64,000 nucleotides of DNA from Raillietiella orientalis (GCA_036172245.1 JAYWIR010000072.1:1-64000), one strand, 5' to 3'. Positions 1 to 64,000 are shown, counted from the first letter of the stretch. Numbers and translations are program-made. The notes: generated by a model not told the origin, from the letters alone.

Positions 1-2395
1 CGTCTTATCACAGTAGTGAATGCGGACGCAAAGTTGTAATCCAAGTTGTGGGCTGAGCGTTTGGGTCGGGTGGCCGCTTCCGTGGTGAGTCCCGAGCAGA
101 CCTACGCTGTTCCCGGACGAACCATGGAGGCCAACCTGCTCCTCGCCAGCTCATGGTGGCAGTTGCGACAACGCGTTGCACAGGATGGTCAAGGGAGCCT
201 CGCACTCCCCTCTGACCAAGAAGATCAAGCAGAGGGTGGGATGGACTCGGCGGGAGCCTTCACCGTCGCGGTCGATTTCCACAAAGCATTCGACTGTGTC
301 GATCAGGATCTCCTTTTCGAGCTCCTGGAACGCATGGGTTTGCCGGCCGTGCTCCAGTCTAACCTGCGATCCTGCTGGCGCAACGCGTATATCAATATTG
401 GTTCCAGCGGCCGGCACGTGTACGGCGTGCCAGTGCGACGCGGCATCCGGCAGGGTGACAGCCTGAGCCCCATGCTCTTTAGCATCTACTTTGCGTTGGT
501 GCTAAGGGCATACAGGGTAACTCTGGCAACTCTGCCGAGCTCGTGTGCCGGCACACCTGTTGTGTCGGCCTATGCAGACGATCTTCTGCTGCTGCTTCCC
601 GGGTCCATCCCGGCGAGTGCGCTCGAGGAATTCTTCGAGTTGCTGCGCCGTGGGACGGGCCTGGAGGTGAACAGGGCGAAGTCGTCTATGGTGTTTGTTG
701 GCTCGGCGTGGGCTGAACGGTCGGACTGGATCCGCTTTGATATCCCCACGGGCAGGTGCTTCAAGTTCCTTGACGTTCCGTTGAAGAACTTCTGCGTAGC
801 GGAAGTCTGGTCCGACCGTCTCTAAAAGGCAGCGTTGGCGATCGGTCCGTTCCAAGATAGCAAGTTCTACTTGCAGGAACAAGCCGCGGTGTGGAACACG
901 TTTCCGGCTTCCCTTCTTCGCTCCCTACTTCTTGTGTGCCCCGCCTTCTATTTTATATGAAAAAGAGCAACGGGCATCTTAAGGACAGTCCTTTGGGGCA
1001 AAGGGAGGTCCCGTGTGAGGCTCAAAGACTTGTGCGCTCCACGTAAGGACGGAGGACTTGGCATACTTACGCTGGAGCGCATTAAATTACAACTCCGCTT
1101 TAGGACTCTATCTCTGGCGGCAGAATTGTGGGACACGCCTTGGTGCATTCCAGCACGCCTCCTGGCCCAACGAGCCTGCGGATTGGATGGACTGTTGTCG
1201 TTTCTACTGGCGCGCGATCGCAGAGAAGCACACGGCGGCTGTCTCCTGCGTCTCATGTGCGTTGTGGTAAGGGAGAACGCCTGGATCTCCTGCCTCCCAG
1301 GTAACTACTCTGCATGGCTGCACGATACAGTGTCCACCTGTGTAAAGATCCACGTTCCGGCGGGCACAAGAAACACTTGCCTAAAAAGGGACGCCCGCTG
1401 CAAACTGCAGGAGATCATGCAGTCCCACGATAAACTTATGTGGGCCCTGATAACCCCCCTTGCCCCAGTGCTGCCCTTCTTAATAAACGCCAGGGACAGT
1501 AGGAAGCTGGGGAAATGAACCGTGTCCTGCACCATTGGCGGCAGGACACAAACGATTAAGGCGTGGACATCTCGGCAGCTAGCGGACGCTGCGACACCGA
1601 GTGTCCCGCTCAACGGAATTCGACGCTGGGGCGAGCTACTCGGACTATCTCCGGAGGAGATGAAGTGGCCTCCAGAGTCCTGGAACAGTGCATTTCTCCC
1701 CCTTAAATGGTAGGAGGTGGCGTTGCTTGTAATACATTGGGGCTTACCCTGTAAAGTACGCCTGTATCACTCAACCCGAGGAGCCGTGGATCCCCAGTGC
1801 GACCGGTGCGGGGAAAAAGAGACCTTTCCCCACCTTCTACGGGAGTGGGGTGCCATACGCCCTTCATGGGATCGCCTTGCGGCGATCCTGGATTTGCGCG
1901 GATGTGGCCCTAAGGACGTTATTAGGCGCCTCTTCTGTAGTGACGCCTTGTCCCCTCCCGCTTATGTAGCAGTCCTCTGCTGCATTCGAGGGATCGTGGA
2001 GGCTTGGAGCGCTACCAGAAGAAGACGTCAGCCAACTGGCAACGCCTCACGTTTCACTCGCCTATTCTTGCGAGCTGTTTGCAAGTGGCGCCAGTTAGGC
2101 GCAGAGAGGACTAAGCTTTTCCGTATCCTTAATAGGATCTAGAGGACCTATCCTCGCGCACAGTGATCTCTTCCCTGTCCTCCCACCCCTGAAACATTTG
2201 TTCCCTCGCACATTTCAGCTTTTTGTTTGTTTTTGTTTTTTCTTTCCCAACCCCCGCGCATTGGAAGGACCTCGCCGGCATAGTGTCGGCAGCCAGCAAG
2301 CTGTTTTGATGTGGTGAAACCTCGGGTTCTCCACTCCATAATGTATTGCGCTTTTGTTTATTTTAAATGAATGCCCCCGCATATCCGGGCGAAAA
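1..2395 (+). mobile_element. L1/Tx1-like LINE (subfamily A): decayed ORF2 from RT to C-terminal Zn finger, plus 3' UTR; 5' part outside window
   Basis: RT motifs VDFHKAFDCVD, RGIRQGDSLSP, AYADD (46-825); CDRCGEKETFPHLL finger (~1800-1840); several in-frame stops; family 3' end ...catatccgggcgaaaa at 2395. Confidence 0.95.
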
Positions 2396-3370
2396 CTCAC
2401 CCCGGAACTCACAGGTTCTGCACCCGGGCAGGAACACTCCATTACGCGCAGCACGGCGGAGGCCGGTGGCGACCGCGCCCTCCAGCCCGTCGTGCTACTT
2501 ACTGCCCGCTCGCTGGCTGAGGCGAGCAACACGGCCTCGCTTTCCCAGTCGTGATAAGGGCGATCGCGTCTTCTCTTCGTGACGTGCTGTAACGTCAACG
2601 GTCTCCAACACGACGAGAAGAGGCGCTTGTGGCTAACGCTCTGCGCCCCTTCGACTTGACGCTCCTGCAGGAGATTCACTGCATCTCAGAAGAGCAGGCT
2701 GCCGAAATCGAACGGCACGCGGCTGGAAGGCTACATTATAGTTGCGGCGTCGCTTTTCTCCTACGAGGAACTTTGGCCGAAGTGGTGCGCAGCGTTCGTT
2801 TCGACACGGAAGGTCAAGTGGGACAGCTTGTACTCAAGTGGTCAGACTTGGATTGAAAGGATTAAGATTTTCGGTACCGTTCAGAGCCAGTAGATCACTC
2901 GTTCTCACCCTACTGTGGCGCATCTCATTGCGGGAGACTTTAACGTCTACCTGCTGACCGAGAATAGCGCACACAAAAGAGAAAAGTTGCTAGCGGAAGA
3001 GATGTGCGCGTCCGTGCACGCGTGCAACTTGTTCGCTAGCAACCCTGTTATGGCAGCAACGCCGGACTTCGTATACCTTGATGAACACTTGCTATCTCGA
3101 GTAGGTCGGAGAGGTCCCGTACCGTCTGTGTTTTCAGACCACAACAGGCTCGAGTTCGAGTTGCTTCCGCCAGGCAAGGGGCGTCCAATCTGTGTTTTAA
3201 ATATTCCGGCAGACTGGCTAAGACAACCGGAGGAGGCGTAGCATCCTCGCCAGTACCTTTGTAGCTTCGCTATAACTGATCTTTCGGACTGGTACGAACT
3301 AAAAAGATCGGTCCGCAAGTTTTGCTGCCGGTTTCCCTCGCACTAGCTTTCGCGCGGCTTCGGAAAGGGT
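2396..3370 (+). mobile_element. LINE fragment: ORF1 C-terminus plus APE endonuclease domain, interrupted at the GFG site
   Basis: LLQEIH, GVAFLL, IAGDFN, FSDH motifs in ORFs 2629-2856 and 2915-3241. Confidence 0.9.
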
Positions 3371-4706
3371 TTTTCATTCGGGAAAGCCGGGGCTTTTATT
3401 ACTAAAATTTTGACATTACATAATTTTGTAATAAAGTCAATGTTGTTAAAATTTTCGTTTTTACGACGTCAGAAGTTCAGTTCAGAAGTTTAGTAGCACT
3501 TGTCCTTACCGACCCGGAGGCCGATAAGGTCCTTCACTGGCGCCGGGACGAAAAAAATAAAAGAAAACAAAAACAAAAAAAAGAAAAACGCCTGGAGGGC
3601 AAATGTTTTTGAAGTCGGCGCCAACGGCACGCTTTCTCCAAGGAGATCGCTGCCCAGTGAATGGCATTCCGGCTGGTCCTTCCTCTCCTAGACGCGGTCC
3701 ACTTCTCCAGGATACCGCGTATGCAGCAGAGCACTGCTACGCTCCCGGAGGCTGGCAAGCCGTCTCGCGTCAGGAGGCGTCTGAATAAATTTTTCGGGTC
3801 AACCTCCGGAATGTTGAGGATCAACGAGAGTCTGTCATACATTTCGCGGAGGGCAACACACTCCAGAATCAAGTGAGGGAAGGTCTCCCTTTCCCCGCAC
3901 TCTGCACAACTAGCATCCACATTCCCAATTGTCCAGCGAGACAGGCGTGCTCTGCTTAAAAGTCCCCAGTGGAGCAGAAGCAACGCCGTCTCTTGCCACT
4001 GCAGGGGAAGGGTACCGTTGTCCCATCACGCTGGGGGCCACTTCACCTTTTCCAGAGGTATACCGAGCAGCGCGCCCCAGCGTAAAAGTCCGTTCGGCGG
4101 GACACTCGGGGTACTAGCATCCGCTAGTTCCCTCGGCGTGCACGCCTTCAGTGACTTTTTCCTGCCTCCGATGAGGCAGGACACTTTCCACGATGCCTGT
4201 TGGTGGCTGTCCCGAACTTCCCTGAGGGAGGGCAGCACTGAGGCAAGGGGGGTGAAGGAATCCCACAGAAGTTTCCGTGGGTTGGAAGCGATCTCCTGGA
4301 GTGGCTGACCAGCGTGCCTCCCTCTGCGGAGACAGTAGTAGTCCTCATCGCTGGTGCCATTGATCTTCGCCCATGCGGAAACGGACTCCTGAAGCCAGGT
4401 AGTCCAGTCCGCTGGGATGCAGGAGATCCAAGGATTGTCTCTCAGAAGGGCAACCAAATTTCGCAGCTGATATCCACAATGGTTCAGGCTGCGTTCGTTG
4501 GCTACCAGGATTGAAGTCAATCCCAAGCAGCCGGTTAACCTGTGAGCAAGGAGTGTTTCCGGTGCACACCAGGGTGCTGTCCAAAACTTTGCCACAAGGG
4601 CAAGTTTTCTGGATTGAAGCTGTCGCTCAATGCGTTTCAACGTCAGGAGATCAAGTCCACCGTCCCTGCCTGGAGCGCACAAGTCTTTGAGACGGACGAG
4701 GGGCAC
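3371..4706 (-). mobile_element. LINE subfamily B, 5'-truncated (ORF2 C-terminal part plus 3' UTR)
   Basis: DLCAPGRDGGL...HWGL...CAECGERETFPHLILEC; near-identical to 47506-48900. Confidence 0.93.
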
Positions 4707-6508
4707 TCAAGTGGTCCGACTCGATCGATCTTGTTGTAACCAAAGTGTACGCGCCGAGCGGTGCTGGACGAGGGGCCGAAAAGATTGAGTTTTTCGGTAC
4801 CCTTCAAAGCCAGTGGCTGACGGGTCGGACTGCCTTCGGAAGGTAGAGTGTGCACTTCGCATGTTCTCAGGAGGCGAGTTCGTCTTGCCGGAACGGGCCA
4901 GCATCTAGAACGCCTTCGTTGCCAACCTTTTCCGCTCCCTGTATTTTGTTTGTCCACCCCCCCAGGAAGTCAAATTCTGGGCGCAACGCCTTCTACGCAA
5001 AGTGTTGTGGCGCCCTGCAAGATCCCGCGTAAGAATTAAAGACTTGGTGGCGCCGCGTCAGGATATAGGCTTGGGCATCCTAGACTTGCAAAGCATCGAT
5101 CTGCAGGTGCAGTTTCAAATGCTGGGGCTCTGTGCCAAGCTGTGGTGTACGCCGTGGTGCTTACCCGCACGCCTCATACTAAGGCGCTGCACGGGAAGCG
5201 AGGGACTGCTTACGTTGCTGCCCCACTTTCGGCATACCAGAATAGGGTTTGGCTTCCCGCTGAGTCAGATGTCCTCACTGCTGGAAGCCCAATGTTAAAT
5301 CTCCTGCCGCCCCATGAACATTTATGCATCGCGGCAGGAACCTTTTTCATCGTGGGTTGCTTGTCAAGGAACGCGATCGGAAGATCTTCGACGCCTGCGA
5401 CTTTTCCTCAGTCATCCAATGGACGAAGTCATGCAGGACAAGAAGAATACGGATCGTCTGGCCGCTACATTACTCGCCGCAGCTCTGTCTGCCCTCAGGG
5501 TAAGCAACGACAGTTGCCTACCGGCGAAATGGGAGTTCTGCACAATAGCGGGAGTGAGTAAGCTCCTCGGCTGCTGGACGACAAAGGAGCTGGTGGAAAC
5601 TGCCACTCCTCGTAATCGGGCGAAGAGCCTGCTTCGATGGAGTGAGCATTTAATTGTAACCCTTGAAGAGATAGTGCTTTCCTTCGTTTGTTTGGAGAAC
5701 TCCGTGTTCCCGTTAAAGTGGAAACAAGATGTGCTGCACTTTTTACACTGGGGCTTTCACTTTAACCGGCAGAGAAGCATAGTTTCCGGCGAAGCCGCTT
5801 TGCCAAACTGTTTGAGGTGCGGGGAGACTGAGTCTTTTCCGCACCTCTTGCTGGACTGCGGTGATCTCCGTGAACTGTGGTGAAGGCTGATTCCAGCCAT
5901 CCTGCCGCAGGGAGGCACTGCCATTGATGTGTTGCAGCGATTCTTCAGCAGAAATGCATTTTCGGTAGGCGCAATTGTCGCAACCTTGTGTTGTGTTCGC
6001 GCCATCGTGAAGGCCCGCTACGCTCTGGAGTTGTCAGCACAGCAAAGTGAGGCCCACCGGTTTGCCTTAGAATCCATGGAAAAGGCTGCTAGGTGACCTC
6101 ATCTCCGTCACGAGGTTAAAGAGGACATCGCCGGCATCCATCGCCGGTTTACAGGCTCTTAAGAACAGCTTAATCCGGTGATCACTACGTCCTGAAGCCC
6201 ACATACACCACTTCTCCGCTCGCCCTGCTTAAATGCCGGTGACATTACTTTTATCCTTGTGCGAACCAGAGTAATCCCAAAGACCCTTGTTCCGGCGTCC
6301 CCCATTGATTTCTTTTTCTTTTGTTTTTGCTTGTTTGTGTTCCTAGTTTCCACACTCTGTTCCGTGTTATTCTGGCCTGCGTGCCAGCAATTTTCTGATG
6401 ATCCTTGTTCAGTCGTCGATTGGGAGCATGGTTCCTAGCTGGTTTATTTTATATAAGTGTTTTCATTTTTATTATATAAAATAAACGCCCGGAGTGATCG
6501 GGTGAGAA
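4707..6508 (+). mobile_element. LINE subfamily C: short EN piece (4707-4830) fused by internal deletion to post-RT ORF2 and 3' UTR
   Basis: KWSDSIDLVVTKVYAPSG jumps to SDCLRKVE; CLRCGETESFPHLLLDC; 3' end aataaacgcccggagtgatcgggtgagaa. Confidence 0.9.
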
Positions 6509-8423
6509 GTCTCTTGCGCTTGTTCTGCAGAGATCACGTGAATCTCCTGCAGCAGCGCAAGGTCGTAGGGTTCCAGAAGAGCGACCATGTCTCGTCTTCT
6601 GCCGGCGTCTATCTTGTTCACGTTCCAAATGGCGATGCGCAGACGACGGCGGAAGGAGATTCCCGGCATTACTGCTGGCTAGACGAAGGTGTGAGGGAGC
6701 CCGCCTCTTGCAAGAGGGGCGTGATATCCATGGAAGTTTTGGCCTTCTCAGGCACCTGAAACACCTGTTCGGCCTCCACATACTCCATCCCTTCCTTGTC
6801 CGAACATGAGAGTCTCTCGGGCGACGGGTCCCGGGAATTTCCCACGCTCATAGCACACTCGCTTCCGGAAGCCATCTCTTCCCCTTCGTCGGGGAAGACG
6901 ATCTTCCGTAGCTTTGTTGAATTTCGTCCAGCCTTTTTGCGGGGTGCGGTGGAAACGGAGGCTGCGCTTCCAGCCTCCACCTCAGGGTCGGAAGTAGGAG
7001 ACTCCTGAGGGGAGGACGGACACCTTACGGCCTTCCTACTTGCTTCAGAGGGGGCTGGCTGCGACCAGGCAGCCAGCTCCTGCGCCGCACGCGCGAAAGC
7101 TGCGTCATCGATGTTGGTGTCGATGACGGACGCCGCCGCCGGCTCGCTCCCCTCGCTGTTGACAGAGTCAACAGAGGTGTGGTCGTCGGTAGCGGCGAGT
7201 TCTTTCTGGCAGCGTTGGGTAACATCAAGAATGCGTTCCACGACGACGCTGCATTCTTAAATTATCGAGCTACCCTGCTCTTTCTTCTTCTGTTGGTAAT
7301 TTTTTACTCCAATCTTCTCTCCTTTTTGCTTTTTCTTGCCGTTGCCACCTGCCACCTAGGCTCTTGTTTGGTTCCCTCGACTTTATCGGCCTTGATTGCC
7401 GTGGTCTCGAGTGCGCCCTGGGCCTTGGGCGCGGGTGGCACGGCCTTCGCGGCTGCTTTTACCGCCAGCCTTTTCTGCAGCAACCGGGCGCGTTATTCAA
7501 GTTTTCTCTTTGAAACCACCCACACACCTGCTTTGGGGCACACCTCCCCCGTGTGACCCATTGTGCCTTATGCTTTGCACTGCACGTTTGGACACCACTT
7601 TTTGAGGTGGCCCGAGTATTGCAGAATCCGCAGTATTTCGGCTTTCCCATATACCAGAGGTCGACGGTTTCGCCATCGACCACCAGTTTGTGGGGAAGAG
7701 TGCAGCCCTCTTGAACGGTCACGCGTGCAGCCGTGAAGCCGTGCTGCATCCCTGTGTAGTCCTCAAAGGGACTAACTTTCGTCCACAGCGCGTGAACCGT
7801 ATCGTATTGCTCCAACGCGGCGCGAACCTGTTCCTTGCGCATCCGCGCGGTGACGCCTTATAGGTGGACCACCATGCTGCGGTCCACCGTAGTGGGGAGA
7901 AGCCTGCGCGTCCCCATCACCACGAGAGTTTTTAGCTGTGGTTGGGCCAACTTTGCTTGTTTGCAGATGACCTCAACGTACTGACCCCCGCTGCGGATGG
8001 TCATAGCGATGAGCTCCTCCTCCTTAACAACGAGAGCCCGAATCCTTTTCGAAAAAATGCGCGCACTCTCTGAACAGTATAGATTGCCTACTTTGTAGAG
8101 CAATGAGGGTTTAAACCCCTCCTCCAGGTAGGCTGACCATTCCGCAGTGGCTGCAGGCTCTGGCGCCTCCACAACGGTGCTCCACGTTCGCGCTGCAGCG
8201 GCGATCGATTCTTTGGGGGCGGATCCCCCACCTCCATCGTCTCTAAGGACGATGTTGCCGCCGCTTCCTGGCTCTCCATCGCTTCTGGAGGAGGCGCTGT
8301 CACTGCCACCTGGCCTTCCCTGGTGGTCGTTTCAGGCATCGCTGCCTGGTCGACTACCGAACCACACTACGCTTGCACTAAGGGAGACTTTCTGGCACGA
8401 GGAGCACCGAGAAAAGACGTCTG
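6509..8423 (-). mobile_element. LINE 5' half: 5' UTR, ORF1 (gag-like, two CCHC knuckles, frameshifted) and start of ORF2 EN
   Basis: 5' motif cagacgtcttttctc at ~8409-8423; GFKPSLLYKVG, PHKLVVDGETVDLWYMGKPKYCGFC; TAATG overlap at 6669; WNVN...LLQEIH. Confidence 0.92.
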
Positions 8424-8429: not shown

Positions 8430-10562
8430 AGTGCACAAAGTGTTCTACTGCGTAAATTAGGATCTCCTCTTGGAGCACCTGGGTCGCATGGGCTTCCCTC
8501 TTTCCCTACTGACCTTCCTGCGCTCTTGCTGGCGCAATGCGCTATTGAACATCCCTTTCAGAGGTCAAATGGCGTACGGCGTGCCGGTACGGCGAGGCAT
8601 ACAGCAGGGAGATAGCCTCTGTCCCCTGCTCATTAGCACCTACTTTGAGTTGGTGCTAAGAGCTTATAGGGTGACGTTGGCCCCCTTGCCCAACTCGTGG
8701 CCCGGCACGTCCGCCGTAGCAGCCTATGCCGATTATCTTCTGCTCTTTTTGCCGACGTCCACCCTGGCAACGGCTGTCGGGGATTTGTATGATCTGTTTA
8801 GCTGCGGGACCGGATTACATGTGAGCAGAGCGAAGTCGTCAGTGGTGCCAGTTGGTGCGGTGTGGGCAGGGAAGCAGGACTGGGTCCGTTTGGGGATCCC
8901 CATGGCAAGGTTCTTGAAGTACCTTGGCGTTCCTTTGGGAAACTTCTGCGCAGCTGAAACATCGTCTGGCGGTCACCAAAAGTTTGAATTGGCGGTATGC
9001 CCGTTCCTGGATGCAAGTTTTAGTTGCAGGAGCGGGCCATGGTGTAGAACGCCTTTGCGGCCCCCTCCTGTTGCCCCCTACTTCTTGTGTGTGCCGTTCC
9101 TTCTTGAATTAGGACACGGAGAAGGGGCCCCTTACGGAAATCTTTTTGTTGCAACCGGAGTCTTCATGTCCTGCTTCAAGAATTTTGCGCTCTATGCTGT
9201 GACGATGGACTTGATCTTCTCGCGTTGGAGCGCTTGAAACGAAAGCTCCAATTTAGTAAACTTTCCTTTGTGGCAAAGAATAGGCAAGCACTTTGGTATA
9301 TTGCCGCAAAGCCTCTCGCCCACAGGGCAACCCGCTGCTGCGGTTTGACATTAATCCTGGTAACTAACGACCGTACACTGAACCATTGTGGGTTTAAACT
9401 ACGCGATCTGGTCACCCTGGTTAGAGAGAATCCGTGGATCTCCTGTATCCCCGTTGAGTGCATTATTTGGGTACAAGAGTCCGTTTCCGCGTGGGCAAAA
9501 TTCAACGGCTCCAGCGTTGTGGACTTCTCCTGCCTCCGTCGAGACAGGTACAATGGTCAGCCACTGTTGGAGATCATATGCAACCCACGCAAACTTTTGT
9601 GGGCTTCCTCCAACCTCCTTGCTCTTTTGCTGTTCTTCTTCAGGAAAGTCAGTGTCATCCAATAGGAGGCATCGTTGGAAGTGTCGTGCCTCATCGCAGG
9701 CAGCAAAAAACGGATGAAGGCGTGAACGTCTCGGGAACTAGCGGACGCTAGTACCTTGAATGTCCAACCGAATGGACTTGTACGCTGGGGCAACCTGCTC
9801 GACATGGAAAAGGCGAAGTGGCCCTTAGCGTCTTGCGATAACGGCACTTTTCTTCTGCAGTGGCAGGAGACTTCATTGCGGACTTTTAATCAGAACGCAC
9901 CTGTCCCACTGGACATCGGGGTGTGTGGATGCCAACTACGGAGAGTGCGGGAAAAGGGAGACCTTCCTTAACCTAATTCTAGATTCTGTTGTCCTTGGTC
10001 AGATGTTTTTGGATTTACTCTGGTGAGCCCTAACTATTCCGGGGGAAAACCAGAAGAAAATTTTTGGACGCCTGCTGTTGCGGGACTCCATGTCAGCCTC
10101 TGGAGGTGTAGCAGTACTTTTTTGCATGCACGAAATCCTGGATAAGTGGAACGCGTTAAGAAGAGTCCGCACCTGTCGGAATTTTATCCACTGGGCCGCC
10201 ATCTCTTTGGGGATGGCCTTCCGTTGGCGCCGACTTCGAAAACCTTTCAGGCACTTTTTCGCATCCGAAACAGCATGTAAAGACCTTCACACGGCGTACC
10301 GTGCTGCCTTACCTTTTCTCCCCTTCCAAAAACATTGCAATCCTCAGGCGTTTTTTTTTTTTTGGTTTTTGTTTTTGCTGCCCCTGCGTGAGTGTGCAGG
10401 ACCTTATCGGCCTGCTGGTCGATAAGGACAAGTGCGTCCAGACAACGAAACTTCTGTGCTGACCCAAAAAGAAAAATTCAGTTCACATAAAAGAATTTAT
10501 TATGGAATTTTTCTGTGTAAGAAATTTTAATGATAAAAGCTTCGGCTCACCCGGTTGAAAAA
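8430..10562 (+). mobile_element. LINE subfamily B, decayed, from RT motif KAFD to 3' end
   Basis: RRGIQQGDSLCP, AYADY; 3' UTR hairpin ccttatcggcc...ggtcgataagg; terminus cacccggttgaaaaa. Confidence 0.92.
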
Positions 10563-10569
10563 TCAAATA

Positions 10570-11450: not shown

Positions 11451-11557
11451 GAACAAGATAAATTCACTTAAGAATTTTCTAAATAGAGTGCAATAACTTT
11501 TCATTATCAATGAATGATGTGATCGGATCCTTTAATATAAATGAGGAAACACTTTGC

Positions 11558-39180: not shown

Positions 39181-39189
39181 CGCTTCATA

Positions 39190-43030: not shown

Positions 43031-43099
43031 CGCATCTCCTGAATTTCCTGCCGGGGCACAGAAGGAAAGTCGCGAGTCCTTGCGTCGTGCATACACGGC

Positions 43100-51304: not shown

Positions 51305-51559
51305 TTTACACCCGGGTGCGCCGGGGCGTTTGTTTCTTTAATAAAAAAAAAAAAAAATAAACAAGCAAGTGTAGGGCTATCTCCCCTACAGTGTTCAGAA
51401 CATGTTCTTCTGAACTCGCCGAGTGGGCAGCACGCAGGTTCCCAAGGTCGACTCGGCAGCGGAGGGGGAAGGGACAAATAGAAAAAAACAAAAAGAAAAC
51501 ACTATTTACAAAAGCAGAGAGGGGTTGGGGAAGGGATCACGTTCCGCTGGAGACGTCCT

Positions 51560-55138: not shown

Positions 55139-56730
55139 TACTGCTGGGAAAGTGATGCTGCGTCTCCCGCCTCACCTAGGGGCGGGACGCCGGCTTTCTC
55201 CTGTGCGGTGGGGGGCGGCTCGACGACCCCCTCCGTCCCCATCGGCTCCGTCTCGACCGATCGTGGGAGTTCAGGACTCGTGTCCATCTCTCCCACGCTC
55301 GCCGCACCCTCGTTTCCGGAGGATTCCCCTTCCTCGGAGGAGACGATCCTCCTCGGGTTACGGATTTTCCTTCCGGTCTTCCTCAGGGGTGCAGATGCGG
55401 ATGGTGCGTGTCCGGTCTCCGGGTCCGAGTCCGAGGTCCCGTTCCCCCTCCTGTCGGCCGGACGTCGAACGGCCTTTTTCCCGACCTTTGCGAGAGGCTG
55501 CTGACTGGCGGAGAGCTCGACGGCGGCTTTTGCAAAGCCCGAGTCATCGCGGCTCTCCCCGTCGCCGCAGCCCTCGGACGCTGTTTGCACAGCGACGGGG
55601 CTGTCAGCGTTGTTGCACACGGCAACGTCCTGTTCGCACGGCACTTCGGCGTCTGCAAGGCGCTCCAGTGCGACCGTGCATTTTTTCAGTCCCTGCTTTT
55701 TCGCGGGTTTCGCGGTTTTTGCAGGGACTTTATTTTTATTATTTACGTCCTTTTTTTCTTTCTTTTTCTTTAGACTGACCTTTTGCCAGCCAGGCTCTTT
55801 TCCTTCCACCTAGGTTGCCTGCGTTTCTGCAGACGGGGTGGTCGGGATGCCCTTTTTGGATGGCTCCGGGTCAACCGTATTTTCAGACGGCGGCCTGGTC
55901 TTGCCAGGCTTCTTGCTCGCGTTCGTGCCGCTCACGGCAGCAGCCGGCGCGCGCGAAGTATTTTTGGGGCACACTTCTTCCGTGTGCCCGATTGCCTCGC
56001 ACTTGCGGCAGGTGATGCTGGGGCAGCGTTTCTTCACGTGCCCCGTACCATCACAAAACGCACAGTATTTGGGTTTCCCCAGATACCAGATGTCGACAGA
56101 ATCTCTGTCGACTACTAGTTTATGGGGAACCCCAATGTCCTTATTCACAGTTACACGTGCCGCGGCGAGTCCGCTCAGGAGTCCGTCACAAGTACGGAAC
56201 CTGTTGGGCTTCAGCCACAGCGCGTGTACGGTGCCGAATTTTCTTAGTTCAGCCCTGACGGCGCTCGGTAACATCCGCACGGTGATTCCACGGAGGTGGA
56301 CAACTATTGAGTTGTCCACCGGGACAGGGAAGATCTGGCGGCCCTCGACCCTGACGGGGGTTCGCAGCAGTCTTTGCGCCAACCCTGCTTCTTTGCAGGT
56401 CAACTCGACATGCTGTCCCTCGCTGCGGATGGAGAGACCCAGCAGATCCTCCTTGTTAACGTTCAAACGGTGGAGCTCCTTCTCGAAGGAGCGCGCCACA
56501 CGGTCATCAAACACCCGGCCTACCTTATACAGCAGACTCGGGTTGTAGTTGTAGGCCTTGTAGGCCTGAGCCTCGGCGATGTCCGCTGCAGATGGCGCGG
56601 CGACCTCGACGCTGTAGTCCCTCGCCGGCGCGGGGGACGAAGCTTTCGGGGCAGGTGCCCCTATCTCCATGGGTACGGGGGACGTTCGCCCGGCCCCCAC
56701 CCCACATTCACTAGTGGCGGGATCAGGCAT
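55138..56730 (-). pseudogene. LINE ORF1 (gag-like, ~530 aa; RRM-like region plus two CCHC knuckles), one premature TAG at 55810-55812
   Basis: ORFs 55810-56931 and 55138-55809 are in the same frame; CAFCDGTGHVKKRC, CRKCEAIGHTEEVC. Confidence 0.93.
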
Positions 56731-56811
56731 TTCTGACATCCCCCGACCACTGATGCACCGCACTACACCAATAAAGTCGAGCGAGTCAGGAGCGCGCAGA
56801 GAACACGTCTG

Positions 56812-57474: not shown

Positions 57475-57494
57475 TGGAGATTCCGGAGCGTCGA

Positions 57495-60110
57495 GCGGAC
57501 GTGTCTTTTCGTTGCTCCTGAGTTCCATTTCCGTTATTGCTAGTGCGTGGTGTCGGTGGAGGATTAGGCAGAAATGCCTCATACCACCATCGGTGAGGAT
57601 CCGGGGGTGATGACCTCATTGCCTTCGGAGCAGATGGAGGTGGAAGCTCCCCCATCAGTGGAGGCTCCCGCCAGCACGGATGCGCCCTTGGCCCTACTTA
57701 GGGCTTGGAACGCCGTGGCTGCGGCACCTACGCCAGCGGCTATGGCGGAAATGCGCGCTTACCAGGAGGAGGGGTATAACCCACCCCTTCTATATAAGGT
57801 AGGCGGCCTATATTCTCCCGAGAACGCGCGCGCTTTCTCACAGGCGATGCGCGTTTTCGGCGTACAGAAAGAGGAGCTTCTGGTTATGTCCGTCAGAAGC
57901 GGGGGTCAATTTGTGGAAGTTATCTGCAAGGAGGCAACTCTTGCGCAGAGACTTCTGCGAACCCCCGTAATTATGGGCAGCCGGAGGCTTCTCCCAATTA
58001 CCGAAGACCGGTCGGTGATCATTCACCTGACCGGTATCACGTTCCGGATGACGAAGTAGGCCGTCCGGAACGAATTGGAAAAATTCGCAACCGTCCACGC
58101 GCTGTGGGGAAAGCCTACTCCTTTTGTCGATTACGACGGGTTGCTTGGCGGCCTGGGTGCAGCGCGAGTGACGGTTCGCGAGGGATGTGAGGTTCCCCAC
58201 AAACTCACCGTCAACGGTGAATCCGCTGACGTGTGGTACGTGGGGAAACCCAAGTTTTGCGTCTGCTGCAGCAGCTTTAATCACCTTAAAATGAGGTGTC
58301 CGAGCGTGCAGTGCCAGCAATGCAAACAAGCGGGGCACACCCGTCTGGTGTGCCCCCAAAACACAGTCCGCGTCGTGTCGGCGATAAACGCGAGAAAGCG
58401 CGCGGCTAAAAAGAGGAAAAAGCTGGTAGCTCGTGCTGCTGCTAAGGAGGTCACTTGCGCCACCAAGGCGAAGGCCAGCCTCGAGACCCCACCGAAAAAC
58501 GCCGAAAAGGTCGAGGGCAAGGGTCAAGAGCCAGGGTGGCAGAAGGTGGACCCTAAGAAAATCTCCCATAAGAAGGGAAAGAACGTGGCGAAACGGAGCG
58601 AAACCGCTCTGCGCCGCGAAAAAACAAAAAGCTGCTGCGTCGTTGTAGAGCGGATTCCCACCATCGACGAATGCGGCGCTAAAAAACTCGCTGCTGCCCC
58701 TGCTCAACCCTCCGTTGACAAAGTCAACAAGGAGGGGAGCGAGGCGGCGGCGTCCGTCAGCGGAAGGGGAAGCCGGACGCCAGACGTCGCCTTCGAGCGC
58801 ACCGCGGAGGAGCTGGCTGCCTCGTTGCAGACGGTTGCCCCCAAGGCTGGCAAGAAGGCCGTCAGGCGTCTGGCTTCCCCTCAGGAGTCGGCCACTTCCG
58901 ATCCCGAGGTGGAGGCCGGAAGCGCAGCCTCCGTTTCCACGGCACCCCGCAAAAAGGCAGGACGAAAGTCCACAATGCCCCGGAAGATCGTCTCTCCCGA
59001 CGAAGGGGAGAGATGGCTTCCGGTAGCGAGGGTGCCATGAGCGTGGGAAACTCCCGGGACCCGTCGCCCGAGAGAATTCCACGCTTGGACACGGAGGTGA
59101 TGGTGAGGATGGAGGCCGAACAGGTACCCCAGGCGCCTGAAGAGGCCTCCGTCCTCCTACCGATGGACCTGTCCTACACCTGCCCCGCGGCAGGTGCCGC
59201 GACGCCACTTTCCCAGCCATAATGCCAGAAATCGCCTCTCGACGTCGTCTTCTGATCGCCTGTTGGAACGTGAACGGGCTAAGCGACGACGGCAAGAAAC
59301 GTGACGTGGCCGCCACCCTGGCATCCTTCGACCTGGTGCTGCTGCAGGAGATCCACGTGATCTCCGCAGATCAAGCCCGGGAGATCGAACGGATCTCGGG
59401 TGGGCGGCAGTTGTGGCGTTGCGGCAACGCGAAATCAAGCGGTGTCGCCTTCCTGCTTCGGCCAGCCATCGAGACCGCAATAAAGGACGTTCGGTTCGAT
59501 GACGCAGGTCGCGTCGGTCAGCTGACTCTCAGCTGGTCCGACTCTATCGACCTGGTCGTCACCAACCTATACGCTCCTAGCGGAAACAACGCGTTGAGGG
59601 CGAAGGCAAGAAGGGAATTCTACCTTGCCCTGAGACGCGATTGGCTGACCGATGCAGGAGCTCGCAAAGCGCACCTGATCGCAGGAGATTTCAACCTGCG
59701 CATGCTTTCAGGTGCGCCGGATACACTGAACGACCGCGTCAACGAGTTGTGCGCAGAAATGAACACGCGCAACTTGTTGGCCGGGGACACGGCCATGGAA
59801 AGCAGCATCGATCACGTGTACCTTGATCAGCACCTATGCTCTCGGGTGGGCAGGCGCGGCAAGGTACCATCCGAGCTGTCGGACCATGGTCGGATCATGT
59901 TCGAAGAGCGTCCGCGCCTCAAGGGCCCCCCCTCGTCAGCGTGGCGTCTGCCACGGGACTGGCTGAAGTTTCCCAATGCGGCGTAGCACCTCCGCGCCTT
60001 TATTCGGAGCTTCATGATGCAGACACTTCAGGACTGGGACCGCTTCAAGCGGTCGGTCCAGGAGTGCTGCGACCAGTTCCCCCTGCATCGCCTACCTGCG
60101 GGATTTGGGG
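57495..60110 (+). mobile_element. LINE 5' half: 5' UTR, ORF1 (57574-59222, one stop and one frameshift), ORF2 EN (from 59222), interrupted at the GFG site
   Basis: gcggacgtgtcttttc; GYNPPLLYKVG; CVCCSSFNHLKMRC and CQQCKQAGHTRLVC; TAATG at 59220-59224; complete EN motifs. Confidence 0.95.
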
Positions 60111-63100
60111 TTCTCACCTGGGTACGCCCGGGGCGTTTATTAAAAAAACTCTACATAAACGTGGTACGAGGCCCCACTAACGGCCACACAACACCGGACC
60201 TGCCGGGACGCCGGGACGCAGCCCGGCGTGACGCTCCTCGGCAGTGGAGGGGGATAGGGATCAAAACAAAAAGAAAAAAAAGATAAGGAAAACAAAAAAG
60301 AGTTTGGAGGGAGGGGAAGGGATCACGTTCCACTTAGAGGAGGGTCCATTCTTCGCAGGATGCCCTCTAGGTCCATCTTCATGTTTTCAAGATGGGGCTA
60401 TCTCGCTGCTCTCCGCATGAAGCAGACCGCATACGGGATGACATCCCTCACGTTGGCATCCACTCCTTCGACGCGAATGTCGCTCCATGCCGCCACGATG
60501 CCCCGGATGCAGCAGAGGGCTGCGAGGGCTGCGGCGGGCTGCAGGGCGTCCCGCACGAAGAGGGGCCGAAGAACTTCTCTGGGCGCGCTGCCCGTTGGGA
60601 GCCCGAAGGTCGTCCCCAACCGTTCCCACAGGGGTCGCAGGGCAGCACAGTCCACTAGTAGGTGGGGGAGCTATTCCCGCTCCCCATACCTGTCACGCTC
60701 AGGCCTTACACTCCACCGCGTCCAGTGGAAGCGGCGCGCGTTGCAGGGTAGACCCCAGTGCAACAGTAGCAGCGCCGACTCTTGCCACTTAAGGGGGAGA
60801 AGCCTGGATCCGATTAATATTGGGGGCCACTTGAAGTCATCCGTCGGGATGCCGAGCAGCTCGCCCCATCTACGAAGTCCACGCGGGAGGGCACTCGGGG
60901 TTGTGGCATCTGCCAGTTCTCCCATGGTCCAACCGCTCATCTTCTTTTCCTTGCCTGCGATTCGGCAGGAGACTTGCCACTTTGGCTTGCGGCCGCTCGT
61001 TAAAGCCCTTCGTAGGAATGGCAGGGTCGAAGCTAGGGGGGTAGTCTCCGCTCACGTGCTCCAGGCGCTCCAGCGTCAGGAGGCCGAGACCGCCGTCCGG
61101 ACGAGGAGCGCATAAGTCATCTAGATGCAAACGTGGCCTCCCGCTGCCCCAGAGGGCGATGCGGAGTAGGTCTTTGGTCCCCTTTTTAACGTCACGGGGG
61201 ACGGGGCACACAAAAAGCAGAATGAGGAGGATGGGAGCCGCGAAGGCGTTCCACACCGCGGCCCGTTCCGGCAGAAGGAACTTGCCTTCCAGGAACGGGC
61301 CGATTGCCAACTCTACCTTCTGGAGACGACCTGACCAGGCTTCTGCGAGGCAAAAGTCCCCCAAACGGGACACCCAGGTACTTCAGGTACCTGGCCGTGG
61401 GGATCCCCAAGCGGATCCAGTCAGGATATCCGACCCACGTCGCACCCACCGGTAAGACCGACGACTTCGCCTTGTTTACCCGAAGTCCAGTAACACGACT
61501 TAGCAGGTCGAAGAAATCCTCGACTGCTTCTGCCGAGACGGACATGGGCAACATGAGCAGAAGATCATCGGCGTATGCTGCAACGGCAGGCGTGCCGGGG
61601 CACGAGCTGGGCAGGGCAGCCAAAGTCACCCTGTACGCTCTCAGCACCAACTCAAAGTAGGTGCTGAAGAGCAGGGGACTGAGGTTATCGCCCTGCCGTA
61701 TGCCCCGCCGCACCGGATCGCCGTACACCTGTTGGCTGGAAAAGACGATGTTGACGATGGCATTGCGCCAGCATGAGCGCAGGTAGGAGAGAAGGGAGGG
61801 TGGGAAGCCCATGCGACCCAGGAACTCCAACAGTAGCTCCTGGTCTACGCAGTCGAACGCCTTGTGGAGATCGACCGCGATCGCTAGGGCTCCCTTCCCA
61901 GCCCGGGTATCCATTCCCAGCCCGGCTGGCGGTCCCAAAGTGGGGTTGCCAATCTTTTCCCCTGGGTCGTTCAGGCAGCGCTGCACATGGAACCATGTGC
62001 TCGCGAAGAAGAGGTTGGCATCCATACTTCGCCCGGGAACAGCGTACGTCTGCTCCGAGCTAATTATGGAGTCTGCCACCTGTCCTAGACGCGAAGCCTA
62101 CAGTCCAGCGATCAGCTTGGCGTCCGTATTCACGATTATGATCGGACGCCAATTGCCCAAGGATCTCAAGTCTCCTCCTTTCGGGAGGAGCCTCACACGG
62201 GCTGACCGAAACGAGGCGGGAACGTCGCCTTCGTCTCGGATCAGCCCGGTCAACTAAAGCACCAGGGGTGCCAGCTCTGCCGTGAAACATTAAAAGATTT
62301 CCGCAGGCAGGCCGTCCTCCCCTGGCGCCTTTCGCCTCTTGAGACTTTTAATACCAGCGAGAATTTCACCGGTAGAAAAAGGCTCGTCGAGGCTGATCTT
62401 CTCCTCCTCCTTTATTGCCGGGGCTCCATCCGGGAGCAGGAGCCGCGAGACGTTCCGCTCTGGGGGTGCGCTAGCGTAGAGGGAGGAGTAATAACGTCGC
62501 ACGAGGTGCCTGATCGCGGGTGGGGCGGATCGCTCCCGGCCCTGGTCGTCCAGCAAGCTGGCCGACCCGGATTGCCAGGCTTGGCGTTCGGCCCCGCTCG
62601 ATATTCCGCGAGGCGACGGACATTCTGGGTCCTCTCGTACCGGCTGGCCTGTAGATAAGCCCGATGCTTCCGAGCCCCCTCCCCGAATCCGGGGGCAGGC
62701 GGTGCAGCGGAAACTCCTCGCAGAACTCGCGGACCGAGGTCTTGAAGAGGTCCCAGTCTTGGAGACTGCGGTGGGTGACGCCTCTCAGGAATTCGCGAAG
62801 GTGTTCTTTCGCACCTGAGAGCCGTGTCCAGTCCCCAGGCAGTCGCCACGCCCAGGACGGGGGTCCTTTGTCGCGCGGGCAAACCTCGGCGATGATCCTG
62901 GAATGGTCCGACAGCGTCGACGCAACTTTTCCCCGTTTGCCGACCCGCGAGCACAGGTCGACATCCAGGAAGAAGTGATCGATGCTGCGGTCCATTCCCT
63001 CCGCGTCTGCCAACAAGTTGCGCGTGCGCATGGCAGCGCACAACTCGTTGGCCGTGCGTTCTTGTGCTTCGGGCTCACCTGACAGCAGACAGAGATTGAA

Positions 63101-64000
63101 GTCTCCAACTATCAGGTGTGCCTTCCGCACATTCGTGTCGGCCAGCCAATCGCGCTTCAGGGTTTCCAGCAGCCTGGTACGGTCGCTGTATCCCCCTTTT
63201 CCGCTCGAGGCGTACACTTTCGTGACGATCAATTCGATCGAGTCGGACCAGCTGAGAATCAGCTGACCGACCCGACCGTCGTCATCAAAGCGTACGCCCT
63301 TCACGGCAGCGTCGATGGCCGACTTGACGAAGAACGCGACCCCGCAGGTGTTGCGGGCGCCGCATCGCCAATGCAGTCGACTCCCCGCGATCGTCTTGAT
63401 TTCTTGCACGTCTGCCGAGGTGATCACGTGGATCTCCTGCAGCAGGGCCAGGTCGAAGTCGCGCAGGGTGTCGGACGTATCTCGTCTGTTGCCGTGGTCG
63501 CGCAGACCGTTGACGTTCCAATTGGCCACGCGGATTCGACGGCGACAGGCGAGCCCAGGTGTTATTCCTGGGAAATCGGCTGTGCGGCGTCCGCCACCTG
63601 TTGGGGCGGGACGCTAGGTGGAGGAGGAGGGACAGGTGCCTCTAGCACCTGGCCACCCTCTTCCATCGGTGACGGCGCGTCGGGTGATTCACCCTGAGGT
63701 GTGGTCGCGCCTACCTGATGGCCCTCCTCCATAGGGGTGGGCTCCTCAGGGTCCGCGACGGCAGGAGGGATTTCGCCCTTCTGCTCACCCTCCTCCATGG
63801 GGGTGTCCTGCTCGACGGCTTCCGCGCGTTGGAGCTCCCCCTCCGGGATTGCCACGCTGCCGGCGACTTCCTGCTTCTCCTCCTCGCTCGTAAAGGGGAG
63901 GCGCTTCCTCGGATTTTGGGACTTGCTTCCTGTCTTCCGGGGGGGTGCCTCCGAGGAGGCGGATGCACTTCCGGCTACCAGGTCGTACTCACCTGCGGAT
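60111..64000 (-). mobile_element. LINE subfamily D: ORF1 end, ORF2 (stops, frameshifts, internal deletion near 61055) and 3' UTR; continues past the window
   Basis: EN ORF 62471-63529, RT ORF 61192-62079 (DLHKAFD, QGDNLSP, YADD). Confidence 0.95.
63655..63810 (-). repeat. Three ~66-bp repeats encoding (T/S)PMEEG units at the subfamily D ORF1 C-terminus
   Basis: TPMEEGEQKG...TPMEEGHQVG...SPMEEGGQV; homologous units at 44935-45085 and 40815-40905. Confidence 0.8.

What the first reader, a model, noticed from the sequence alone, without database searches (positions are those of the whole stretch)
1..64000. A guild of LINEs that nest in each other almost exclusively antisense
Seen: 14 element 3' ends abut an identifiable LINE host. 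Thirteen are antisense to the host (3371, 6508, 24166, 27600, 31227, 32264 [24-bp remnant, tentative], 33425, 34626, 38592, 41866, 47506, 51305, 60111) and one is sense (2395). Intact 5' ends show the same bias: 8423, 28488, 32289, 37849, 49668 and 56811 are antisense, 45646 is sense. The result is a strand-alternating array with no host DNA over >40 kb, while the 11-kb gene island is LINE-free inside. Known: TPRT primes from the nicked strand, and Tx1-clade elements include sequence-specific members that target other repeats. Inference: the EN nicks the host element's sense strand, making a self-targeting 'safe harbour' array. Such nests would also produce dsRNA and might mark heterochromatin or centromeres.
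Basis: partly seen in the sequence, partly recalled or inferred. Interest (0 to 1): 0.85.

Follow-up and report, generated by a model that had tools for sequence, protein, structure and literature searches.

The report
LINEs nested antisense at hot spots
This stretch is a pile-up of related jumping genes (LINEs) in which newer copies sit almost always backwards against older copies, several at exactly the same spots, which suggests they aim at each other's sequence rather than landing at random.

Summary
About 52 kb of the window (1-10561 and ~22057-64000) consists of diverged copies of one L1/Tx1-like LINE lineage. These copies have an APE endonuclease and RT, defined 5' and 3' termini, and no poly(A). 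Fifteen abut LINE DNA. Of these, 12 are antisense and 1 is sense (2395). Two (32264, 57472) are followed after a 23-24-nt spacer of unassignable origin by a same-strand 5' end. P lies between 0.002 and 0.035 depending on how those two are counted.

New here: insertion sites recur. Same-subfamily inserts share the same site three times, and one ~45-nt stretch of ORF2 (the 'GFG' codons) is broken in 4 of 8 copies. In each recurrent pair the insert sides are more alike than the host sides, so these are independent hits, not duplicated blocks. One near-intact element (51305-56811) has flanking duplication and an empty site in a related data set.

Best reading: site-preferring endonucleases nick the sense strand of resident copies. 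Why always the sense strand is unexplained. The 'gene island' shows no gene. Centromere and dsRNA ideas are untested. No genome was available, so n is small.

The parts
1..2395 (+). #1 LINE 3' part (model 3102-5507), subfamily 'delta'; 3' end at 2395 abuts a same-strand LINE (the one sense junction)
2396..3370 (+). #2 host piece (model ~1630-2579); broken at GGCTTCGGAAAGGGT^ in the GFG codons
3371..4713 (-). #3 'alpha' insert, 3' end at 3371 (model 5507->4103)
4690..4822 (+). #4 133-nt endonuclease-region piece (model 1964-2096) between #3 and #5
4821..6508 (+). #5 'gamma' insert (model 3911-5505), 3' end 6508
6509..8423 (-). #6 5' part (model 1836->1), full 5' end at 8423; broken at GAGA(Y)^CGA by #5
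8432..10561 (+). #7 3' part (model 3382-5507); 3' end 10561 abuts non-LINE DNA
10562..22056 (.). LINE-free, AT-richer island (42% G+C) with its own inverted duplication; no gene detected
22057..23179 (+). #8 piece (model ~1570-2730), GFG site uninterrupted
23259..24165 (+). #9 host piece (model 1535-~2476)
24166..26690 (-). #10 'epsilon' insert (model 5504->2970), 3' end 24166
26691..27600 (+). #11 'delta' insert (model 4475-5505), 3' end 27600
27601..28488 (-). #12 5' part (model 731->4), 5' end ~28488; holds a 24-bp tandem repeat
28495..31226 (+). #13 (model 2768-5502), 3' end ~31227
31228..31382 (-). #14 155-nt RT piece (model 3730->3575)
31373..32264 (+). #15 (model 4599-5506), 3' end 32264
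32265..32288 (.). 24-nt spacer between a + 3' end and the next + 5' end; origin and strand not assignable
32289..33424 (+). #16 5' part (model 1-1146), full 5' end
33425..34317 (-). #17 insert (model 5502->4565), 3' end ~33425
34442..34625 (+). #18 185-nt host piece (model 1654-1838), broken at GAGAT^ by #19
34626..37849 (-). #19 'gamma' insert (model 5504->2460) joined to a 5' leader ending at 37849
37882..38591 (+). #20 host piece (model 1269-1954)
38592..39219 (-). #21 insert (model 5506->4863), 3' end 38592
39263..41865 (+). #22 5' part (model 37-2559), broken at GGATTTGGTG^
41866..43350 (-). #23/24 'beta' insert (model 5504->4215 and 2679->2544), 3' end 41866
43358..45640 (+). #25/26 5' part (model 3-2141), full 5' end at 43358 abutting #24
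45646..47505 (+). #27 divergent element, 5' end 45646 (sense to #26); 46593-47505 unlike any other copy
47506..49658 (-). #28 'alpha' insert (model 5507->3384), 3' end 47506 at CCCGAAGGGGT^
49669..51304 (+). #29: 5' leader (49669-49736) joined to model 3256-4849; host of element A
51305..56811 (-). Element A, full length (5507 nt); ORF2 has 2 in-frame stops; antisense in #29, with flanking duplication and an empty site in run X1
57475..57497 (.). 23-nt spacer before the next + 5' end; origin not assignable
57498..60110 (+). #30 5' part (model 3-2557), broken at GGATTTGGGG^
60111..64000 (-). #31/32 'beta' insert (model 5505->4550 and 4191->1377), runs off the window

Best explanation
The two LINE blocks are a nest built by repeated target-primed reverse transcription of several co-resident subfamilies of one L1/Tx1-like LINE lineage into each other.

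The element-encoded APE endonuclease prefers a small number of sites that lie in the sense strand of resident copies:
- a ~45-nt stretch of ORF2 between the endonuclease and RT domains (the 'GFG' codons, model ~2530-2580);
- GAGAT^CGA at model ~1836;
- a further junction cluster at model ~3382.

The 3'-OH of the nicked sense strand primes cDNA synthesis on the element's RNA, so the new copy ends up antisense to its host. A new copy can in turn be hit, which gives the alternating pattern. 5' truncation and loss of host sequence are frequent.

Shown: the termini, the orientation counts, the recurrence of sites, and one complete insertion with flanking duplication and an empty site.

Inferred: that endonuclease site preference is the cause of the bias, and that most other junctions are insertions of the same kind. 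It remains unexplained why every preferred site is on the sense strand.
For: (1) Orientation. 12 of 13 assignable 3' junctions are antisense (P=0.0017).

(2) Recurrent sites. Both 'beta' inserts end after GGATTTGG(T/G)G (41866, 60111). Both 'gamma' inserts end at GAGA(T/C) of model 1836-1838 (6508, 34626). Both 'alpha' inserts end after C.GAA(A/G)GGGT (3371, 47506), the second in a non-homologous host region. Among the 11 junctions placed in model coordinates, 2 pairs lie within 3 nt (431 of 200000 simulations reach this) and 4 pairs lie within 25 nt (582 of 200000).

(3) GFG stretch. Of 8 copies aligned across model 2520-2600, 4 are broken there and 4 are intact.

(4) Independent hits, not copied blocks. 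The insert sides are more alike than the host sides in all 4 recurrent pairs:
- beta: 74-80% versus 65-67% (Fisher P=0.001);
- gamma: 79-83% versus 59-61% (P=4e-7);
- alpha: 81-91% versus unalignable;
- the 5' junction at model 3382: 88% versus 73-75% (P=0.02; tests).

(5) Element A. It interrupts #29 at contiguous coordinates (model 4849 | 4830). A contig of run X1 joins 51299 to 56822, skipping 5522 = 5507 + 15 nt. This is an empty site with CTGCT duplicated.

(6) Age order. In the right-hand chain, stop-codon density falls with nesting depth: #22 1.2, #23/24 1.2, #25/26 1.4, #28 0.7, #29 0.4, A 0.1 per 100 codons.

(7) Composition. Strand composition cannot explain the bias. The sense strand is A 0.220, T 0.220, G 0.285, C 0.276.

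(8) Precedent. Target-specific insertion into other transposons is described for the Tx1 clade (Kojima 2015, passages).
Against: - Each recurrent site rests on n=2 inserts.
- Six of the 12 antisense junctions are at single sites (model 731, 1146, 1954, ~2476, 3730, 4849).
- The 'delta' pair (2395, 27600) and the 'epsilon' pair (24166, 31227) do not share a site.
- No motif common to all nick sites was found.
- Site preference by itself does not say why 9 of 10 distinct site choices fall on the sense strand (P=0.011).
- Only element A has both host flanks in register. For the others the host's other half is missing, displaced by 0.3-2.3 kb, or would lie beyond the window.
- On the left side, stop density does not follow nesting order: #11 has 2.8 per 100 codons.
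- Two 3' ends are followed by same-strand elements, and one junction is plainly sense.
- The LINEs also border non-LINE DNA (10561; loose ends).
- Everything comes from one window.
Confidence: 0.5

Rival explanations
1. The bias is imposed during integration by transcription of the resident copies, not by site recognition. Either repair coupled to transcription aborts sense-oriented integration intermediates, or the displaced non-template (sense) strand of transcribed LINEs is the one exposed to nicking.
For: Servant et al. 2017 (PMC5717806, abstract only) report that transcription-coupled repair biases de novo human L1 insertions against the sense orientation in genes. Here half of the antisense junctions (6 of 12) are at non-recurrent sites. 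Strand composition is symmetric. So a general strand-level cause is needed in any case.
Against: This does not predict nucleotide-precise reuse of sites by same-subfamily inserts. There are no expression data, and most hosts are old, broken copies. It could act together with site preference rather than instead of it.
Confidence: 0.2
2. Insertion orientation is random. The excess of antisense neighbours is chance in a small sample, or arises later because sense (direct-repeat) pairs are removed by recombination or are harder to recognise.
For: There are only 13-15 events. P is 0.018-0.035 if the two tandem cases count as sense. Only one young insertion has an intact duplication (A). Host sequence is often missing next to inserts, so deletion is common here. 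Levy et al. 2010 (passages) had to drop same-family sense insertions as ambiguous.
Against: The 3' termini were found by a profile that does not depend on flank orientation. Neighbouring copies are only 60-80% alike, which makes them poor substrates for homologous recombination. Three same-subfamily pairs sit at the same site in the same orientation. The right-hand chain is ordered by age.
Confidence: 0.15
3. Much of the alternation comes from rearrangement within single insertion events (twin-priming-type 5' inversions) or from copied composite blocks, not from separate antisense insertions.
For: In 7 of 7 head-to-head junctions that lack a second 3' end, the inverted piece covers more 5' coordinates than the adjoining 3' piece, as a 5' inversion would give (for example 41866-43350(-) with 43358-45640(+)). 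#25/26 and #23/24 are both ~75-80% like the other beta copy and have similar stop densities.
Against: The junctions counted for the bias are complete 3' termini abutting internal host positions, which twin priming does not make. The break position in the '+' piece goes with the subfamily of the next '-' insert (beta, gamma, alpha), as expected for a target site. Unequal divergence on the two sides argues against copied blocks. The 5' ranges of inverted pieces (700-2600) and 3' pieces (2400-4900) make 'b<c' nearly automatic.
Confidence: 0.1

Closest known systems
Zepp / ZeppL LINE clusters of green algae (Chlorella, Coccomyxa, Chlamydomonas)
   Same: These are LINE-only, G+C-rich clusters tens of kb long, made by insertion of L1-group LINEs into existing copies with frequent 5' truncation (Blanc 2012 and Craig 2021, passages).
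   Different: Zepp is described as giving tandem arrays mostly of 3' ends, i.e. in one orientation (Craig 2021, passage). Here 23 of 29 neighbouring pieces switch strand and many 5' halves are present. There is no poly(A) tail here, whereas Zepp's poly(A) is recalled, not checked. The closest named relatives are not algal ZeppL. The original Zepp papers were not held, so their junction details were not seen.
Target-specific Tx1-clade LINEs (Tx1L in Tx1D, Keno in U2 genes, Tx1-Mar in Mariner-N4_AMi, two families in LTR elements)
   Same: These are APE-type LINEs that insert at set positions of a repeated target, including other transposons. Different families use different positions of the same target (Kojima 2015, passages). 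The best named relatives of the window's ORF2 carry the TX1 name.
   Different: The target here is the coding sequence of the LINE lineage itself, hit antisense by several subfamilies. Specificity is only a preference: half the junctions are at single sites. Clade membership was not tested by a tree.
Orientation bias and hot spots of nested human transposons (Levy, Schwartz & Ast 2010)
   Same: Nested insertions show hot spots along the target element and orientation bias (passages and Table 3 text).
   Different: Human L1-in-L1 is biased about 2.2-fold towards sense (21,559 versus 9,899), attributed to sequence features of L1. Here the bias is the other way and stronger (12:1 to 12:3), with no strand asymmetry in base composition.
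Tandem dimers from double insertion at one target site (McGurk & Barbash 2018)
   Same: The two 3'-end / 23-24-nt spacer / 5'-end arrangements (32264-32289, 57472-57498) look like two hits at one duplicated target site.
   Different: Only the title and the start of the abstract were seen. The spacers here could not be assigned to any host.

Membership tests
APE-type LINE of the L1/Tx1 group | ORF2 with N-terminal apurinic-like endonuclease (Pfam PF03372) | tested here: met
   3 of 218 ORFs of >=100 aa match above cut-off. Examples: 59141-59983(+) at 66 bits and element A 54725-55171(-) at 33.7 bits.
APE-type LINE of the L1/Tx1 group | Reverse transcriptase domain (PF00078) | tested here: met
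   9 of 218 ORFs match; 7 are above the 29.6-bit cut-off.
APE-type LINE of the L1/Tx1 group | C-terminal zinc-binding domain after RT (PF13966) | tested here: inconclusive
   5 ORFs match at 20-23.5 bits, all below the 27.5-bit cut-off.
APE-type LINE of the L1/Tx1 group | ORF1 with CCHC zinc knuckle(s) | tested here: inconclusive
   No Pfam family at E<=0.001 for 55813-56934(-). Cys-His strings of knuckle type are visible in the translation. The pattern is recognised by eye only.
Tx1 clade | Placement within Tx1 in an RT phylogeny | not tested
   Only the naming of relatives was seen. At 30-37% identity these are an unnamed sea-turtle protein, a Closterium protein and an Oryzias protein named 'transposon TX1 uncharacterized 149 kDa protein'.
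Target-specific LINE | Copies of one family at the same nucleotide of a repeated target, in one orientation | tested here: met
   Three subfamily pairs (alpha, beta, gamma), n=2 each, all antisense. The two sides diverge unequally.
Target-specific LINE | Most copies genome-wide flanked by the target | not testable with these tools
   No genome is held. In the window 15 of 16 3' ends abut LINE, but LINE is ~81% of the window.
Target-specific LINE | Endonuclease cleaves the target site specifically | not testable with these tools
   This is a bench assay.
Zepp/ZeppL-type cluster | Cluster formed by insertion into existing copies | tested here: met
   The LINE profile covers 95.5% of 22057-64000. 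Element A is nested, with an empty site.
Zepp/ZeppL-type cluster | Same-orientation (tandem) arrays mostly of 3' ends | tested here: not met
   23 of 29 adjacent pieces switch strand. Nine full 5' ends are present.
Zepp/ZeppL-type cluster | One cluster per chromosome / centromeric histone association | not testable with these tools
   No genome and no ChIP data.
Twin-priming 5' inversion | Inverted 5' segment and direct 3' segment of one RNA within one pair of target duplications | tested here: inconclusive
   Coordinates fit in 7 of 7 head-to-head junctions, but no shared duplications were found and the break sites go with the neighbour's subfamily.

The most novel reading that the evidence does not exclude
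A guild of LINE subfamilies whose endonucleases have each specialised on a conserved coding motif in the sense strand of their relatives' ORF2, so that functional constraint on the host keeps the landing pad intact. Alternatively, their integration is steered to the sense strand by pairing of element RNA with resident copies (an R-loop-type guide). Either way the result is obligate antisense 'LINE-in-LINE' hyperparasitism that builds self-growing, dsRNA-prone arrays.
Probability: 0.2. Interest if true: 0.8.

Novelty: new variant of a known kind. Interest (0 to 1): 0.55.

Why it matters
LINEs that land in other repeats are known, and so are LINEs that pile into their own copies. If confirmed genome-wide, this case would add three things:
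- a lineage in which several subfamilies reuse nucleotide-precise sites inside each other's coding sequence;
- a fixed antisense orientation, opposite to the sense bias of human L1-in-L1;
- no base-composition asymmetry to explain that orientation.

Together these would give a natural system for asking how an APE-type endonuclease or the integration complex reads strand identity. They would also let one ask how 'safe-harbour' arrays grow, and whether such inverted nests feed small-RNA or heterochromatin pathways.

Tried and rejected
- Whole genome: none is held, so no genome-wide test was possible.
- Earlier notes: none for this genome or sequence.
- Relatives elsewhere. The metagenome scan gave 1 distant locus at 27% identity (L001). 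The genome-contig scan and the viral-contig scan gave none. The search for homologous proteins gave 3 proteins, only one of them close (73%, a 2870-bp contig). phmmer against 1.84 billion representatives gave one hit at 73%, one 132-aa piece at 66%, and the next at 37%. The Atlas look-up gave only generic RT clusters from mixed phyla. The organism stays unknown.
- Sequencing runs: one DNA run with a 0.09 share of words, and no RNA holder listed.
- Run X1 joints. The two 'opposite strands' joints and the 'skips 8820' joint join equal model coordinates of different copies, so I read them as paralogues laid across two copies, not as junction evidence.
- 3' terminus structure: RNAalifold predicts no conserved pairs in 14 termini, so no stem-loop is claimed.
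- Spacers 32265-32288 and 57475-57497: not assignable to a host or a strand.
- Base-composition explanation: rejected.
- Common nick-site motif: none is convincing. A 'TCG' near about half of the sites was noticed post hoc only.
- CpG decay as a clock: unusable, because CpG o/e is 0.8-1.2 everywhere.
- Frameshift counts are confounded by subfamily indels.
- Island: no Pfam hit above cut-off among 135 ORFs (one COX6A hit at 17 bits, below the cut-off of 25). No Rfam family or tRNA.
- Literature. Searches listed no paper on antisense self-nesting LINE guilds. This covers only the held library and the listed titles and abstracts. Higashiyama 1997 and Yamamoto 2003 were not held.


Full report
WHAT THE WINDOW IS

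Two G+C-rich blocks (52-62% G+C) flank an AT-richer island of 38-46% G+C. Of 218 stop-to-stop ORFs of at least 100 aa, 9 match reverse transcriptase (PF00078) and 3 match the apurinic-type endonuclease fold (PF03372). Five match the zinc-binding domain zf-RVT, all below its cut-off.

One copy on the minus strand, 51305-56811 ('A', 5507 nt), is nearly intact. Its ORF2 reads through 1203 codons with two in-frame stops. A search of the window with A alone, and then with a profile built from the hits, places every LINE piece in A's coordinates. The profile covers 95.5% of 22057-64000 (40038 of 41944 bases) and nearly all of 1-10561. It finds nothing in 10562-~22056.

TERMINI

The copies share a 3' terminus of about 27 nt with no poly(A): AATAAACGCCCCG-GC....CCGGGTGAGAA. 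They also share a 5' terminus, (G)CAGACGTGTTTTCTCGGTGCTCC.

A profile of the 3' terminus finds 16 sites at E<=2.7e-4 and nothing else below E=2.9.

Nine pieces reach a full 5' end: 8423, 28488, 32289, 37849, 43358, 45646, 49668, 56811 and 57498.

No conserved secondary structure was predicted for the 3' terminus.

ORIENTATION

One 3' end (10561) abuts the island. The other 15 break down as follows.
- Twelve abut a LINE piece on the other strand: 3371, 6508, 24166, 27600, 31227, 33425, 34626, 38592, 41866, 47506, 51305, 60111.
- One abuts a same-strand piece (2395). Its flank at 2447-2507 matches the region upstream of another + copy.
- Two (32264, 57472) are followed by a 24- or 23-nt spacer and then a full 5' end on the same strand.

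I could not assign either spacer. Against all LINE DNA their best local scores (11-13) equal those of shuffled spacers (median 11, maximum 14). In a directed test, the reverse complement of the first spacer matches the 'GFG' site (10 exact letters, 36 of 2000 shuffles), but its forward strand matches the same region nearly as well (145 of 2000). For the second spacer the value was 167 of 2000.

The count is therefore 12 of 13 (one-sided P=0.0017), or 12 of 15 if the tandem cases are taken as sense (P=0.018; two-sided 0.035). Neighbouring pieces switch strand in 23 of 29 pairs (P=0.0012), but a nested insert contributes two such pairs, so this figure is inflated.

Of the 9 full 5' ends, 6 abut the opposite strand, 1 abuts the same strand (45646), and 2 are the tandem cases.

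Grouping inserts by the likeness of their 3' regions gives pairs that I call alpha, beta, gamma, delta and epsilon.
- alpha: 3371, 47506
- beta: 41866, 60111
- gamma: 6508, 34626
- delta: 2395, 27600
- epsilon: 24166, 31227

The two beta inserts end at the same nucleotide of the host, after GGATTTGG(T/G)G (model 2557-2559). The two gamma inserts end at GAGA(T/C)^ before CGA (model 1836-1838).

The two alpha inserts end after TTCGGAAAGGGT and CCCGAAGGGGT. The first lies five nucleotides downstream of the beta site. The second lies in a host region (46593-47505) with no likeness to A's ORF2 or to anything else in the window. What the two alpha sites share is therefore the short motif, not homology.

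Of the 8 copies aligned across model 2520-2600, four are broken there:
- #2, #22 and #30, each by a 3' end;
- #24, which starts there against the 5' end of #25.
The other four (#8, #19, A, #32) are intact.

A further pair of junctions, a full 5' end against an antisense copy starting at model 3382-3384, occurs at 8423/8432 and at 49668/49658.

Among the 11 antisense 3' junctions that can be placed in model coordinates, 2 pairs lie within 3 nt and 4 pairs within 25 nt. Uniform simulations reach these counts in 431 and 582 of 200000 runs.

The delta and epsilon pairs do not share sites, and six junctions are singletons.

INDEPENDENT HITS OR COPIED BLOCKS?

If a host-plus-insert block had been duplicated, both sides would have diverged equally. 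They have not:
- beta: host 65-67% versus insert 74-80%;
- gamma: host 59-61% versus insert 79-83%;
- alpha: host unalignable versus insert 81-91%;
- model-3382 junction: host side 73-75% versus 5'-leader side 88%.
Fisher tests give P=0.001, 4e-7 and 0.02 for the three pairs that can be tested. I take the recurrent junctions to be separate insertions of like elements into unlike hosts.

ONE CLEAN INSERTION

Piece #29 (+) runs to model 4849 at 51304-51310 and resumes at model 4830 at 56816, with A between them on the other strand.

A contig of run X1 (Logan contigs, 90-99% like the window) joins 51299 directly to 56822, skipping 5522 nt. That is A's 5507 nt plus 15. The flanks show CTGCT on both sides and ten further letters at the 5' junction that resemble the left flank. 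Read as a duplication, this is 14 nt with 3 mismatches.

So A is a real, fairly recent antisense insertion.

Another X1 contig bridges the sense junction at 45646 and departs from the window about 22 nt before the alpha junction at 47506. It may be a form without that insert, but I could not see its sequence.

ARCHITECTURE

From 39263 rightwards the pieces can be read as a staircase of insertions, each into the one before: #22 > beta #23/24 > #25/26 > #27 > alpha #28 > #29 > A. After #29's 3' end the series continues with #30 > beta #31/32.

Stop-codon density in the homologous frame falls along this series: 1.2, 1.2, 1.4, (0.4), 0.7, 0.4 and 0.1 per 100 codons. This fits 'deeper is younger'.

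The hosts' other halves do not reappear within the window. That is a prediction for the flanking sequence, not a finding.

On the left, two sets share the form 'host (+) / full-length insert (-) / truncated insert (+)', with 0.3-2.3 kb of host coordinates missing:
- #2, #7 / #3, #6 / #5;
- #9, #13 / #10, #12 / #11.
They are not copies of each other. In the second set the stop densities do not follow the order (#11 has 2.8).

A reading in which head-to-head junctions are twin-priming inversions fits the coordinates in 7 of 7 cases. It does not explain complete 3' termini abutting internal host positions. Nor does it explain why the break position goes with the subfamily of the next insert.

WHY ANTISENSE?

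In target-primed reverse transcription, the strand that is nicked becomes continuous with the cDNA. This is established knowledge, recalled. An antisense 3' junction therefore means the host's sense strand was nicked.

A site-specific nick gives a fixed orientation, which accounts for the recurrent pairs. It does not explain why 9 of 10 distinct site choices are on the sense strand (P=0.011).

Base composition is not the reason. The sense strand of all pieces together is A 0.220, T 0.220, G 0.285, C 0.276.

Human L1-in-L1 insertions are biased the other way, 21,559 sense to 9,899 antisense, a bias put down to L1's sequence features (Levy et al. 2010, passages).

A transcription-coupled effect, as reported for de novo L1 in genes (Servant et al. 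2017, abstract), or exposure of the non-template strand, remains a live rival or partner. No expression data were to be had.

THE ISLAND

10562-~22056 is LINE-free and has 42% G+C. I found no gene: 135 ORFs of >=45 aa gave 0 Pfam families above cut-off, and there is no Rfam family or tRNA.

The island carries an inverted duplication of its own: 13552-16405 against 20359-17916, at 72-84% identity.

RELATIVES AND ORGANISM

The lineage is isolated. Among 1.84 billion representatives there is one protein at 73% and one 132-aa piece at 66%, both from unnamed JGI/IMG records. The next hit is at 37%.

Named relatives at 30-37% identity are an unnamed sea-turtle protein, a Closterium protein, an Oryzias protein named 'transposon TX1...', and fish hypothetical proteins. 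This makes a Tx1-like placement plausible but untested.

CpG o/e is 0.8-1.2 in both LINEs and island, so there is no CpG depletion.

COMPARISON WITH KNOWN SYSTEMS

Zepp/ZeppL elements also pile into their own copies and form G+C-rich clusters. They are described as tandem arrays mostly of 3' ends (Craig et al. 2021; Blanc et al. 2012; passages). The original Zepp papers were not held.

Tx1-clade families are known to aim at set positions of other repeats, including DNA transposons and LTR elements (Kojima 2015, passages).

The present case works like a target-preferring Tx1-type LINE whose target is its own lineage's coding sequence, read backwards. My four literature searches listed nothing of that kind. 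They cover only the held library.

VERDICT

The alternating, LINE-on-LINE array and its antisense excess are real in this window. The excess is significant but rests on 13-15 events.

The recurrence of sites is the stronger result and points to targeted insertion. The cause of the strand choice is open.

I rate this a new variant of a known kind and moderately interesting. It needs the whole genome to stand.

Noticed in passing
window 13552-16405 and 17916-20359: The LINE-free island contains an inverted duplication with arms of ~2.8 kb at 72-84% identity around a ~1.5-kb centre, including a 64-nt near-perfect palindrome at 17601-17664. Its nature is unknown. No ORF has a Pfam match.
   Followed up: partly
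window 37728-37849 and 49669-49736: Two copies carry a genuine 5' leader joined directly to the middle of ORF2: model ~2460 in #19 and ~3256 in #29. These are internally deleted forms. I did not resolve whether by splicing, template switching or deletion.
   Followed up: partly
window 32265-32288 and 57475-57497: Twice a complete 3' end is followed after 24 or 23 nt by a complete 5' end on the same strand. The equal spacer length suggests two hits at one duplicated target site, but the spacers match no LINE region above chance.
   Followed up: yes
window 45646-47505: Element #27 has the family's 5' terminus and an ORF1-like part, but 46593-47505 (a 312-aa open frame) resembles nothing else in the window or in Pfam. 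A related contig in run X1 follows it from 45612 to 47484 and then continues for ~1.9 kb unlike the window.
   Followed up: partly
window 4690-4822: A 133-nt endonuclease-region piece on the + strand lies between the truncated 5' end of alpha insert #3 and gamma insert #5. It may be filler or the remnant of another host.
   Followed up: no
window 28173-28315: A 23-24-bp tandem repeat of 3-5 copies lies inside the 5' part of element #12.
   Followed up: no
whole window: CpG observed/expected is 0.8-1.2 in LINE pieces and 0.9 in the island, so there is no sign of methylation-driven CpG loss. The youngest copies are the most G+C-rich, 60-61% against 49-58%.
   Followed up: no
window 21092-21337 (-): The only Pfam signal in the island is a weak COX6A match (17.2 bits, below the cut-off of 25). 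It is probably chance.
   Followed up: no
nick sites, window-wide: About half of the host sequences just 5' of the insert 3' ends contain TCG or TCGA within a few nucleotides of the break. This was noticed after the fact and not tested.
   Followed up: no
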